DNA from: the human T2T-CHM13v2.0 reference genome, Homo sapiens
Length of the DNA stretch: 64,000 bases
Assembly: GCF_009914755.1 (NCBI RefSeq)
Contig: NC_060925.1
Strand: one strand, 5' to 3'
Each line of letters begins with the position of its first letter. The stretch's first letter is position 1. Of the stretch, positions 54,413-57,412 are shown piece after piece. The position numbers and the translations under genes were made by a program. Under the pieces are notes generated by a model, which was not told the DNA's origin, did not search any database, and saw only the letters and a program-made list of their open reading frames with translations.

Positions 54413-54829
54413 GATTACAGCATTGAACTTTATGATGAAAAACCATGCAAGGTCCTCCTTCCTGTACTACTTTAGTCCAAATAACCATCACCTCTCTTTG
54501 GGCTGGCTGTAATAGCCTTCTATTTGAACCTCTTATTCCCTCAAAGCAGCCAGAAGTATCTTTCAAAATCATAAATCAAATCTTACCACTTTCCAGGTGG
54601 GTGTGGTTGTGCACCCCTGTAGTCTCAGCTACTGAGGAGTCTGAGGCAGGAGACTCATTTGAACCTTGGAGTTCTAGTCCAGCCTGGGCAACATAGAGAG
54701 ACCTCATCTCAAAAAATTGAAACAAATAACAAAAACAGAAACGAAAAATGAAAAAAAAATCTTACCACTTTCCATCACATTCCAAATTAAATACAGAGTC
54801 CTTACCGTGGCCTCTAATGCTCTTAAACT

Positions 54830-55090
54830 CTGGCAGGTCTGGTGTCTGGTGAGGGTCCAGTTTCTGCTCCCAAATGGCACCTTTGTGCCACATCCTCACA
54901 TGGCAGAAGGCTGAAGGGCAAAGAGGGTTCAAACCATGTGTGAAGGCTATTCTTTAAGGGCTTTAATCCCATCCATGAGGGAGCAGTCCTCATGACCGGA
55001 TCACCTCCTAAAGACCCCACCTCTTAATAGGATTGCTTTGGAGATTAAGTTCCAACATGAATCTTGGAGAGGACACTTTCCAATCATAAT
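54830..55090 (-). mobile_element. MaLR LTR fragment
   Basis: catcctcacatggcagaagg...taatcccatccatgagggagcagtcctcatgacc. Confidence 0.7.
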
Positions 55091-55396: not shown

Positions 55397-55539
55397 TTTA
55401 ATTGGGAAATGGCAACCTCATTCAGCTCAGTGAAGGCTGGGTCACTTGCTAGGTTACAACTTCAGTGATCAGGGCACTTCAGTGGCTCTTCAGAGTTCAT
55501 TTGTATATAAGTGAAGCTCTCCCTTTTGTAGACTTCTCT
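55397..55539 (-). pseudogene. Vitellogenin exon 6 remnant
   Basis: acacag| EKSTKGRASLIYK*...SALITEVVT*QVTQ/FTELNEVAISQL AA|gtagga versus recalled ERLTKGTTAFSYK...GTLITDVSSRQVYQISPFNEPTGVAVMEAR; phase-2 donor conserved. Confidence 0.85.
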
Positions 55540-56323
55540 CTGTGTAAGTACAAACCAACCAGAGGCATGGCTATTGCTTTCCTGTCACTTAGGAATGAAA
55601 TTAATGACTCCTTTATGTCCCATGCCAGGCAATCATCTCAATAGTTTGTGCAAGCTTAGCTTATCTACACAATATCAAACAGGCAATCACAGTTCTCCCA
55701 TGATGCCAGGCAAAACAGAACTTTGTTTCTCCTACATAAAAGAGCACAACATCACAGGTTTAAAACCTCTCACCCTCAGTTTCATCTCACTATTATTGTG
55801 TTAAACATGCTTAATGAAAAATCTGGGCTGGGTTCTTTTCTGTCTTCCCACAATGAAAGTCACAGGAATGGAAACTCGGTTCCAAATGTTTCCATGTGGA
55901 AATGAAGTTGAGAGAAAGCAGTCTCATAAGTATGTGTTAAGTGCCTGTGGAAGCAGAGTCTCATGTTAGACGCAGTGACATTCAGGAACAAATCAGAACA
56001 CATATTCTTGGCCTCCTGAGCTATCATTGTTGTTTGAAGAATGGAGCATTTACCATCTAATAAAAAAGTGAAAGCCTAACACACAAAATCAATTTTAAGA
56101 CAAAGGCTAGGACTTCTCAATTTAGAAGAGGAGATACTTGAATTTTTCTCACACATCATCCCTCACCAGGGCTCCTGAGTAGAACATCTCAGACAACGTA
56201 GGACATAATTTGAAAAGTACTGATCAAATCAGTACAGCACTGATTAAAGAGCAGGTATTGAGTGCCACGCCCATTGGGTGTTGATCCAGGGAAGAAGCTG
56301 GGAGCCCTAGTCTTGGAACCCAC

Positions 56324-56471
56324 CTGAGGATAGCCTAGAATGTCGTTCATGTACATAGTCTTCAACCTTTTTTTGCAAGGGCTGAGGTCCCTGGTCTTGT
56401 TCACAATCATCCTGCTGTACTTTTGGTCTTCTTGGATGGCATATCTGGTGGGCAAACTCCAAAACTGCCAA
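56324..56471 (-). pseudogene. Vitellogenin exon 5 remnant
   Basis: ctcttgtttgcag| GSFGVC/TRYAIQEDQKYSRMIVNKTRDLSPC versus recalled GIGGICHARYVIQEDRKNSRIYVTRTVDLNNC; 3' limit uncertain by about 9 nt. Confidence 0.92.
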
Positions 56472-56555
56472 CTGCAAACAAGAGAGAGAACAATCCCTCT
56501 GTCATCTGGCCATCCTACCCCGCAGCTGAGGGGAGTGTCAGCGAACCTGGAGCAC

Positions 56556-56778
56556 CTCCCGCAGTTCACAGACTAGTTATGTTTTCTTGATGGTCACATG
56601 CAGCATGTGGAGGATACTACAGAATATGTTGATGATGGTTTTCAACATCTTTTCAGAAGCATAAAATTTCCAGCCTTCCGTGGTATGTTTAAATTTCACA
56701 GGGTCAGAGAGGTGGGCTGCCATCATAGCGGTTTGGGGGCCAGAAACATTTATATTTATTAATTTGAGGAGATCAAAT
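56556..56778 (-). pseudogene. Vitellogenin exon 4 remnant
   Basis: cttctag| I*SPQINKYKCFWP...PVKF...YASE...NIFCSILHMLHVTIKKT*LVCELRE|gt versus recalled VRSPQVEEYNGVWP...FKF...YAPE...NIVRGILNMFQMTIKKSQNVYELQE; 84-nt GT-AG intron to exon 5. Confidence 0.93.
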
Positions 56779-57274
56779 CTAGAAGCAAGATTATGGGAAA
56801 TGCTAACATTTTTCAAACAAAAGCGTTCGAAAGAAAATATGAGAAAACATCCTTAGTGTTTGAGAATTGTTTTTTAGTTTACTCTAGCAGTCTGTTTATT
56901 CTTTCATCCTATAAATATGTAGCAAGTATCTGCCTTGTGTTAAGTCCTGTAATGTGCTAAACGTTGGGATCACTTTCAAAGAGCTGGATGAGGTTTCCAT
57001 GATGTCATACCACCTTGAAGATTTTCCAGGCCATTTAAGGCCTTCACTTACTGTAATTTCTCCCCAATTCCCCTCCACTCCATTTCTGAAAAAATACAAG
57101 CCTTTGGGAAATCCACCAGACCTGGGCAGAAGCCTAATTACCCTTTTGGAGACTCCCCAGGGGCTCCAGTGGTCCTCATTGTTTTGATCTCAGCCTCCTG
57201 ACCTGGTTTAGAAGCAAACCTGGAGTTGCATGGGGTAGCATTTTATCATCTGCAGGTAGAGATCTGGCTAGTTG

Positions 57275-57412
57275 CTTGCATATGAGAAAAAGAGAACTGA
57301 GAGAGCCAATTTCAAATTGAGTTGGCAGAAACCAGTGTGCAGGAAGAACTATTCTGGCAGTTTTTAAATGACTTCCAAAGTATTTTGCATTTGAGAGAGC
57401 AACTAAACTGGT
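57275..57412 (-). pseudogene. Vitellogenin exon 3 remnant
   Basis: KYFGSHLK/LPE*FFLHTGFCQLNLKLALS versus recalled NYEGSMLNGL(P/Q)(E/D)...AGVRLSSKLEIS; splice sites degenerate. Confidence 0.65.

What the first reader, a model, noticed from the sequence alone, without database searches (positions are those of the whole stretch)
55397..57412. Four consecutive fossil vitellogenin (egg-yolk) exons hidden upstream of CTBS
Seen: on the - strand four segments translate, allowing frameshifts, into exon-like blocks at 57275-57412, 56556-56778, 56324-56471 and 55397-55539. Key peptides are SPQ..Y...WP, VTIKKT*LVCELRE, RYAIQED and ALITEV...QV.Q..F.E, with nonsense changes at 56773 (TGA) and 56577 (TAA). 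Established (recalled): these motifs and intron positions match lipovitellin-1 exons 3-6 of vertebrate vitellogenin; VTG2/VTG3 lie between SSX2IP and CTBS in chicken; therian mammals lost these genes (Brawand, Wahli and Kaessmann 2008 reported remnants). Inference: this is the orthologous unprocessed pseudogene. The gene loss is known, but this exon-level map may be more complete than current annotation.
Basis: partly seen in the sequence, partly recalled or inferred. Interest (0 to 1): 0.93.

Follow-up and report, generated by a model that had tools for sequence, protein, structure and literature searches.

The report
Fossil egg-yolk gene exons, human
Two neighbouring stretches upstream of human CTBS are decayed exons of an egg-yolk (vitellogenin) gene that placental mammals lost, and one is now reused as an exon of the non-coding RNA LINC01461; the loss was already known, so this confirms and sharpens old work.

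Summary
Two of the four claimed blocks are real vitellogenin fossils. Block 56556-56778 and exon 56324-56471 (minus strand, 84-nt intron, AG/GT borders) hit Pfam Vitellogenin_N colinearly: profile 77-135 (E 0.037) and 144-177 (E 1.7e-4). A profile of exon-5 copies from five mammalian sequences hits lamprey lipovitellin 1LSH at E 9.2e-6. In blind grids, 0 of 333 other windows hit a vitellogenin family.

Block 55397-55539 has the quoted peptide and AG/GT borders but no statistical support. Block 57275-57412 has no support at all. The peptide 'SPQ..Y...WP' lies in the second block.

The segment is single-copy. Exon 5 is no better conserved than its flanking intron. It is exactly the internal 148-nt exon of the lincRNA that Hezroni et al. 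2017 list as a fossil of a lost coding gene. It shares its acceptor with the LINC01461 terminal exon. Felid gene models splice it at the same borders.

Brawand et al. 2008 already reported human VIT remnants here, without significance. This is an incremental refinement of known work.

The parts
56556..56778 (-). It reads I*SPQINKYKCFWPPNRY, then in another frame ...AHLSDPVKFKHTTEGWKFYASEKMLKTIINIFCSILHMLHVTIKKT*LVCELRE. It has two in-frame stops and at least one frameshift.
   Evidence: Borders are AG|...|GT. The read-through 56556-56741 hits only Vitellogenin_N, profile 77-135, E 0.037, 13 bits. The blind grid window 56451-56900 hits the same model at 78-136, E 0.16.
56773..56775 (-). In-frame TGA, second codon of the fossil exon
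56577..56579 (-). In-frame TAA between ...VTIKKT and LVCELRE
56472..56555 (-). 84-nt intron between the two confirmed fossil exons (gt...ag)
56324..56471 (-). It reads xGSFGVC in one frame, then after a frameshift TRYAIQEDQKYSRMIVNKTRDLSPCKKRLKTMYMNDILGYPQ. It is still spliced as an RNA exon.
   Evidence: Pfam Vitellogenin_N 144-177, E 1.7e-4, 20.7 bits. It is the only match outside three LLTP gene loci in a genome-wide six-frame scan. Profile A2 hits 1LSH_A residues 142-180, E 9.2e-6. It equals the 148-nt internal exon of Hezroni's TCONS_00018292. Felid models map to 56473-56324.
56339..56471 (-). Terminal exon of LINC01461 (NR_125761.1). It uses the fossil exon's acceptor.
   Evidence: Annotation table supplied with the finding. 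The acceptor AG at 56473-56472 is confirmed. There is no AATAAA/ATTAAA in the 80 nt before the annotated end.
55397..55539 (-). It reads REKSTKGRASLIYK*TLKSH*SALITEVVT*QVTQ..., then in another frame ...PAFTELNEVAISQLK. Unconfirmed.
   Evidence: AG|...|GT borders, same strand, 784 nt downstream. No hit in Pfam or the PDB. The resemblance to vitellogenin is recalled only.
57275..57412 (-). Not supported.
   Evidence: No canonical splice sites at the quoted ends. No Pfam hit in any frame. 0 of 57 grid windows over 56.8-59.5 kb hit a vitellogenin family.

Best explanation
Window 56324-56778 (minus strand) holds two consecutive, intron-separated exons of a unitary (unprocessed) vitellogenin pseudogene. 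By position it is most likely the CTBS-side copy, VIT3/vtgIII, of the ancestral tandem pair next to SSX2IP. It encodes nothing: stops and frameshifts break both exons, and they drift at the same rate as the neighbouring intron. The one thing still working is splicing. The second exon keeps its ancestral acceptor and donor, and is incorporated into non-coding transcripts (LINC01461/XLOC_002805 in human, predicted 'uncharacterized protein' models in cats). Shown here: vitellogenin origin of the two exons, the disablements, single copy, and reuse of the splice sites. Inferred: the VIT3 assignment, neutral decay, and that 55397-55539 is the next exon.
For: Each read-through piece has Vitellogenin_N as its only Pfam hit, at adjacent colinear profile positions: 77-135 (E 0.037) and 144-177 (E 1.7e-4). 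In blind grids on the same strand the model was hit in exactly the 2 of 6 control windows that carry these exons in frame. It was hit in 0 of 333 other windows (150, 126, 57). 39 of those 333 had weak hits, all to unrelated families. The plus strand gave 0 of 3 frames. In the genome-wide six-frame scan all 17 matches lie in chr2 (8), chr4 (5), chr16 (3) and this exon (1). The profile of 5 mammalian copies hits lamprey lipovitellin 1LSH_A 142-180 at E 9.2e-6, with the next hit at 0.52. Borders are AG/GT with an 84-nt intron. The chr2 LLTP exon (APOB by recall) covers profile 137-184 and places its Cys at exon residue 7, as the fossil does. The 2,016 bp are single-copy. Hezroni's table gives synteny through ssx2ip and flags significant similarity to X. 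tropicalis transcripts. Identity in the exon against the flanking intron is 0.42/0.43, 0.49/0.56, 0.49/0.46 and 0.80/0.82.
Against: Both Pfam scores are below the gathering cut-off of 24 bits. E 0.037 for the first exon is no better than the unrelated noise hits (best 0.013-0.026), so only the family identity and colinearity carry weight. Single-sequence searches against the PDB found nothing for either exon. The other mammalian copies fail Pfam on their own: 0 of 9 at E<=0.1, with the trimmed P0005 part at E 0.11 and the felid part giving nothing. No true vitellogenin turned up in the large protein searches. So no frameshift-aware alignment to a bird, reptile or monotreme vitellogenin was possible. 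The fossil-APOB comparison is not significant (hhalign E 0.13; BLASTP none). The five rows of profile A2 all descend from one fossil and are not independent evidence.
Confidence: 0.9

Rival explanations
1. The fossil exon survives because it is functional as RNA or DNA. LINC01461 would be a vitellogenin-derived lncRNA under selection, or the segment a regulatory element, and the retained splice sites would reflect that function rather than luck.
For: Both ancestral splice sites are used in human transcript models (RefSeq table). They are also used in gene models of 5 felid species, two orders apart. Hezroni et al. selected the lncRNA as one with sequence similarity to lncRNAs of other species.
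Against: The exon is no better conserved than the adjoining intron in 4 of 4 comparisons. Hezroni's table gives 'Conservation beyond first exon' = 0 for this lncRNA. The only paper naming LINC01461 is a list-type ceRNA study (listing only). No expression or constraint data were available here.
Confidence: 0.1
2. The two blocks are relics of a different member of the large lipid transfer protein superfamily (APOB-, MTP- or apolipophorin-like), not of vitellogenin.
For: The Pfam model hit is the superfamily-wide Vitellogenin_N. A third human locus of this superfamily on chr16 has a very similar exon / short spacer / exon layout and a KTKDL..C motif.
Against: The only significant structure hit is lipovitellin. 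A profile of 7 apolipophorin-like proteins finds nothing near 56 kb among 4,074 six-frame windows. The same proteins singly touch exon 5 only at E 9-15 (3 of 7), against 0.30 for reversed controls. APOB comparisons are not significant. The locus is syntenic with the gene next to ssx2ip, which Finn et al. 2009 say is vtgII in chicken.
Confidence: 0.04
3. Chance resemblance in neutral intergenic DNA.
For: Individual scores are weak and below curated cut-offs. About 1 window in 9 of this region gets some weak Pfam hit (39 of 333).
Against: None of those noise hits fell on a vitellogenin family. The two positives are adjacent, on the same strand, colinear on the model and splice-bounded. The profile hit to lipovitellin has E 9.2e-6. 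There is an independent published similarity to a Xenopus gene.
Confidence: 0.01

Closest known systems
Human/dog VIT1-VIT3 pseudogene remnants of Brawand, Wahli and Kaessmann 2008 (PMC2267819; abstract and passages read; Figure S1 is a PDF and could not be read)
   Same: The same phenomenon, and very probably the same DNA: vitellogenin coding remnants with stops and frameshifts in the region syntenic to chicken VIT2/VIT3. The paper says 'mainly from VIT1 and VIT3'.
   Different: [quoted passage not shown] Here two exons get independent support through protein-family and structure-sequence searches with blind controls. Exact borders, disablements and the lncRNA overlap are also given. I could not see which exons their Figure S1 shows.
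lncRNAs derived from 'genes with lost coding potential' (Hezroni et al. 2017, PMC5577775; passages and supplementary files 3 and 4 read)
   Same: Their first table row, XLOC_002805 (hg19 chr1:85062132-85086749, minus strand), is this locus. It is one of only 11 human lncRNAs with significant similarity to the lost gene (X. tropicalis transcripts; ssx2ip anchor). Its 148-nt internal exon is the fossil exon, base for base.
   Different: The paper and its supplements never name vitellogenin (0 occurrences) or LINC01461. They do not say which exon carries the similarity.
Lamprey lipovitellin, PDB 1LSH chain A
   Same: Residues 142-180 align with the fossil exon profile: TrYAIQed...KTrdvspc..Kv against TTYVVQEG...KTKDLNNCDHKV.
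   Different: It is an intact, solved protein from a jawless fish. Only 39 residues align, and the other fossil blocks do not reach it.
Exon of the chr2 LLTP gene (APOB by my recall of its position and sequence), G000:C2:21070319-21070474
   Same: It has the same place on the Pfam model (137-184 against 144-177) and a similar size (156 against 148 nt). The Cys is at the 7th exon residue and an RDL..C motif follows. This suggests shared intron positions.
   Different: It is a functional exon of another family branch. Direct similarity is not significant.

Membership tests
Unitary (unprocessed) vitellogenin pseudogene | Significant sequence similarity to a vitellogenin/lipovitellin protein | tested here: met
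   Profile of exon-5 copies against the PDB: 1LSH_A lipovitellin at E 9.2e-6, next hit 0.52. Met for exon 5 only.
Unitary (unprocessed) vitellogenin pseudogene | Match to Pfam Vitellogenin_N at or above the gathering score (24 bits) | tested here: not met
   Best scores are 20.7 bits (exon 5) and 13 bits (preceding exon). Single decayed exons cover 34-59 of 590 model positions, so the cut-off for whole domains is not a fair bar. The claim is descent from, not membership as, a working protein.
Unitary (unprocessed) vitellogenin pseudogene | Several exons, colinear on the protein, same strand, separated by introns with splice signals (not a retrocopy) | tested here: met
   Two exons: profile 77-135 then 144-177, an 84-nt gt...ag intron, AG/GT at all four borders. 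A third (55397-55539) has borders but no similarity score. The claimed fourth fails.
Unitary (unprocessed) vitellogenin pseudogene | Disabling mutations in the reading frame | tested here: met
   TGA 56775-56773 and TAA 56579-56577; frame changes inside both exons.
Unitary (unprocessed) vitellogenin pseudogene | Position syntenic with the functional gene of egg-laying vertebrates | tested here: inconclusive
The window lies between CTBS and SSX2IP (supplied annotation). Hezroni's table uses ssx2ip as the synteny anchor in lizard and Xenopus. Finn 2009 states that Ssx2ip adjoins vtgII in chicken.
Unitary (unprocessed) vitellogenin pseudogene | No intact paralogue or other copy; not a repeat | tested here: met
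   Only a self-match for the 2,016 bp in the genome. No second copy of any fossil peptide in the 102-kb CTBS-SSX2IP interval, best non-self E 0.25.
Unitary (unprocessed) vitellogenin pseudogene | Closer to vitellogenin than to other LLTP branches | tested here: inconclusive
   Lipovitellin is the only significant structure hit. The apolipophorin-like profile and the APOB exon give nothing significant. No phylogeny was possible without vitellogenin sequences.
lncRNA derived from a lost protein-coding gene (Hezroni class) | An annotated lncRNA exon overlaps the coding remnant and reuses its splice sites | tested here: met
   The LINC01461 exon 56339-56471 starts at the fossil acceptor (supplied table). 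The 148-nt block of TCONS_00018292 equals 56324-56471. The offset was checked on two other exons of the model: the 149-nt one lands on an AG...GT segment with shift 0, and the 86-nt one follows an AG.
lncRNA derived from a lost protein-coding gene (Hezroni class) | Evidence that the RNA is functional or constrained | tested here: not met
   Identity in the exon equals identity in the flanking intron in 4 of 4 mammalian copies. This is a crude test on translated sequence.

The most novel reading that the evidence does not exclude
A single vitellogenin exon has stayed in continuous use as a spliced exon, with both ancestral splice sites, in transcripts of primates and carnivores since before those orders split. 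By my recollection this is the exon that encodes the receptor-binding loop of real vitellogenins. LINC01461 would then be a vitellogenin-derived lncRNA kept for a function of its own, for example regulating CTBS or SSX2IP, and not transcriptional noise over a fossil.
Probability: 0.08. Interest if true: 0.5.

Novelty: already known. Interest (0 to 1): 0.27.

Why it matters
The loss of the yolk genes is a textbook example of molecular vestiges in the human genome, but the 2008 report could not show significance for the human VIT2/VIT3 region. Here two exons in that region get exact borders, a list of disablements and blind controls. This ties together two published observations that were never linked by name: the Brawand remnants and Hezroni's unnamed lncRNA fossil. 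It shows that LINC01461 is built partly on a vitellogenin exon. In practice the locus deserves a pseudogene annotation. The felid 'uncharacterized protein' models that translate the fossil exon are probably mis-called coding genes. None of this changes what is known about mammalian reproduction.

Tried and rejected
1. Obtaining real vitellogenin sequences for a frameshift-aware alignment failed. The word-indexed search with the human exon found no candidate sharing three words. The search with the five-copy profile found 8 hits among 79 candidates, all mammalian copies of the fossil. The exhaustive HMMER search found 10 hits, 9 of them mammalian copies and 1 unrelated. PDB chain ids are not retrievable as proteins. 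I did not type the lamprey stretch shown, because it is not a stored sequence.

2. Single-sequence PDB searches gave 0 hits each: the exon-5 ORF, block 4, block 6 and the felid downstream exon.

3. The idea that felid models splice exon 5 to block 6 is rejected. Their downstream exon has no match in the human interval at E<0.01 and no Pfam or PDB hit.

4. The idea that the upstream 149/152-nt lncRNA exon (ext 77108-77256) is a fossil of the second vitellogenin copy found no vitellogenin-like reading (by eye only).

5. A second fossil copy in the interval was not found.

6. Further exons between CTBS and block 6: 0 of 276 windows. Upstream of block 4: 0 of 57. Sensitivity is limited, because block 6 itself is invisible to Pfam.

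7. The chr16-type LLTP proteins used as comparators, singly and as a profile, were uninformative.

8. The APOB exon comparison was not significant.

9. The receptor-binding motif I recalled was not found in the searchable papers, so that link stays a recollection.

The genome search does not take alignments.

11. Literature searches for a later exon-level map and for LINC01461 found none. The supplements of two other lncRNA-relic papers lack the locus.

Full report
WHAT IS IN THE SEQUENCE. Reading 5' to 3' on that strand, a 223-nt segment (56778-56556) follows a pyrimidine tract and AG. It opens I-TGA-SPQINKYKCFWPPNRY, changes frame, continues ...AHLSDPVKFKHTTEGWKFYASEKMLKTIINIFCSILHMLHVTIKKT-TAA-LVCELRE, and ends at a GT. 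After an 84-nt gt...ag intron comes a 148-nt segment (56471-56324). It reads xGSFGVC in one frame and TRYAIQEDQKYSRMIVNKTRDLSPCKKRLKTMYMNDILGYPQ in another, and is again bounded AG|...|GT. A third AG|...|GT segment lies 784 nt further on (55539-55397, 143 nt). It reads REKSTKGRASLIYK*TLKSH*SALITEVVT*QVTQ and then, in another frame, PAFTELNEVAISQLK. The motif 'SPQ..Y...WP' attributed to the series lies at 56704-56772, inside the second block.

ARE THE TWO CENTRAL BLOCKS VITELLOGENIN? Each was read through with X at its stops and scanned alone against Pfam's 24,736 models. Each has a single hit, to the same model, Vitellogenin_N. The first block hits profile positions 77-135 (E 0.037, 13 bits) and the second hits 144-177 (E 1.7e-4, 20.7 bits) (earlier searches had found the second). 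The hits are adjacent and colinear, in the order the DNA gives. Both are below the curated cut-off of 24 bits, as expected for single decayed exons that cover a tenth of the model.

An exhaustive HMMER search of 1.84 billion cluster representatives with the ORF holding the second exon returned no vitellogenin. It did return nine short predicted 'proteins' from the same locus of other mammals. Sources name five felid species. A profile of five copies of the exon (alignment A2) was searched against all PDB sequences. It hit lamprey lipovitellin 1LSH chain A, residues 142-180, at E 9.2e-6, and the next hit had E 0.52. In a six-frame scan of the whole assembly with the Pfam model, all 17 matches fell in four places. 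Eight were on chr2 and five on chr4, which are APOB and MTTP by my recall of their positions. Three were on chr16, and one was this exon.

CONTROLS. I cut the minus strand into read-through windows and scanned them blind. There were 150 windows of 90 residues and 126 of 150 residues between the CTBS promoter and 55400. Together these cover all three frames, with windows more than 60% masked skipped. A further 57 windows of 90 residues covered 56.8-59.5 kb. None of these 333 windows hit any vitellogenin-related family. Thirty-nine had a weak hit to something unrelated (17, 13 and 9 windows; best E-values 0.015, 0.026 and 0.013). So E 0.037 alone is noise-level, and what counts is the family and the colinearity.

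Six control windows on the same grid over 56149-56900 gave Vitellogenin_N in exactly the two that carry the exons in frame, and nothing in the other four. The plus strand gave nothing. The 2,016-bp segment has only its self-match in the genome, so it is not a repeat.

BLOCKS ONE AND FOUR OF THE CLAIM. The block at 55397-55539 has proper borders and lies where the next exon should be. But Pfam and the PDB give nothing, and its resemblance to vitellogenin rests on my memory of bird sequences, which I may not enter. I rate it likely (about 0.6) but unshown. The block at 57275-57412 has no splice sites, no family hit in any frame, and no alternative candidate nearby. I rate it about 0.2.

DECAY. 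Four mammalian copies that read through from the exon into the intron can be compared with human on both sides of the border. Identity is 0.42, 0.49, 0.49 and 0.80 in the exon, and 0.43, 0.56, 0.46 and 0.82 in the flank. The exon is therefore no better kept than its surroundings, which fits neutral drift. Ancestral exon length and the exact number of frameshifts cannot be fixed without a reference. The two frame changes in the 148-nt exon would be explained by two single-base losses from a 150-nt exon with phase 0 at both ends. That fits the chr2 LLTP exon of 156 nt, which covers profile 137-184 and has its Cys at exon residue 7 like the fossil. This is inference, and the direct comparison is not significant.

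THE RNA CONNECTION. The supplied RefSeq table gives the terminal exon of LINC01461 as 56339-56471. Its 5' border is the fossil acceptor. Hezroni et al. 2017 (supplementary files 3 and 4) list lincRNA XLOC_002805 at hg19 chr1:85062132-85086749, minus strand. It is one of the 11 human lncRNAs with significant similarity to a 'gene with lost coding potential'. Here that means transcripts of X. tropicalis, and synteny in lizard and Xenopus anchored on ssx2ip. Their model TCONS_00018292 has blocks of 86, 148, 149 and 310 nt.

Placing the 148-nt block on 56324-56471 puts the 149-nt block exactly on an AG...GT segment (77108-77256, shift 0) and puts the 86-nt block behind an AG. The equation therefore holds: the fossil exon is an internal exon of that RNA, with both ancestral sites in use. 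The felid models join different upstream exons to the same first residue and leave the exon after the same Q. They map to human 56473-56324 at about 1e-12, and their first exons map 28 kb upstream on the same strand.

WHAT IS NEW. Brawand et al. [quoted passage not shown] Their Figure S1 could not be read. Finn et al. 2009 (passages) place Ssx2ip next to chicken vtgII. The fossil lies 22.6 kb from the CTBS start and 44.7 kb from SSX2IP, which makes it the VIT3 side. That is an inference from position. Neither 'vitellogenin' nor 'LINC01461' occurs in Hezroni's text or supplements. My searches found no later exon-level map. So the gene loss, the remnants and the lncRNA-fossil status are each in print.

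LIMITS. No tetrapod vitellogenin sequence could be obtained. The decisive alignment is therefore still to be done, and exon numbers are recalled, not tested. The scan for further exons is only as sensitive as Pfam on 90-150-residue windows, which misses even the plausible third exon.

Noticed in passing
G000:C16:11527982-11552399 (loci L002, L008); ORF L002:1402-2082 minus strand: A third human locus matches Vitellogenin_N: 46.3 bits over profile 82-172 in an open 226-residue frame, plus two more exon-like matches, one with a TAG. The frame reads an exon-4-like stretch, about 26 in-frame codons, then ...[24 protein letters not shown], the same layout as the fossil. Its relatives are mammalian proteins that sources name 'apolipophorins-like', 'vitellogenin domain-containing protein' or 'vitellogenin-like' (rabbit, Weddell seal, goat, narwhal, dog, woodrat, wombat; 982-1881 residues for the longer ones). 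Whether the human copy is intact over its whole length was not examined.
   Followed up: partly
P0007, P0008, P0010, P0011, P0012 (felid records named); human counterpart 56324-56473: Felid entries called 'uncharacterized protein LOC...' or 'hypothetical protein' translate the fossil vitellogenin exon in the post-frameshift frame, between unrelated low-complexity exons. No Pfam domain was found in the three scanned, P0007, P0008 and P0010. They look like non-coding transcripts mis-called as coding.
   Followed up: partly
window 56060-56569 minus strand; P0013, P0001: Public protein collections hold 147-170-residue 'proteins' that are simply the stop-to-stop frame running from intron 4 through the fossil exon into intron 5 (97% and 81% identical to the human translation). 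These are spurious ORF calls.
   Followed up: no
window 56339 (annotated 3' end of LINC01461) and 54825-54910: There is no AATAAA/ATTAAA in the 80 nt before the RefSeq end at 56339, which lies 15 nt short of the fossil donor. Hezroni's model instead splices on to an 86-nt exon at 54825-54910, which also lacks such a signal in its last 60 nt. The RefSeq model may be a truncated cDNA.
   Followed up: partly
ext 84948-85117 (about 21 kb beyond the window end, minus strand; locus L015): The first exons of the felid models match human DNA here (E about 5e-9, with a stop in the human reading). This is upstream of the LINC01461 start at 79408, so the felid transcripts start further upstream than the annotated human lncRNA does.
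   Followed up: no
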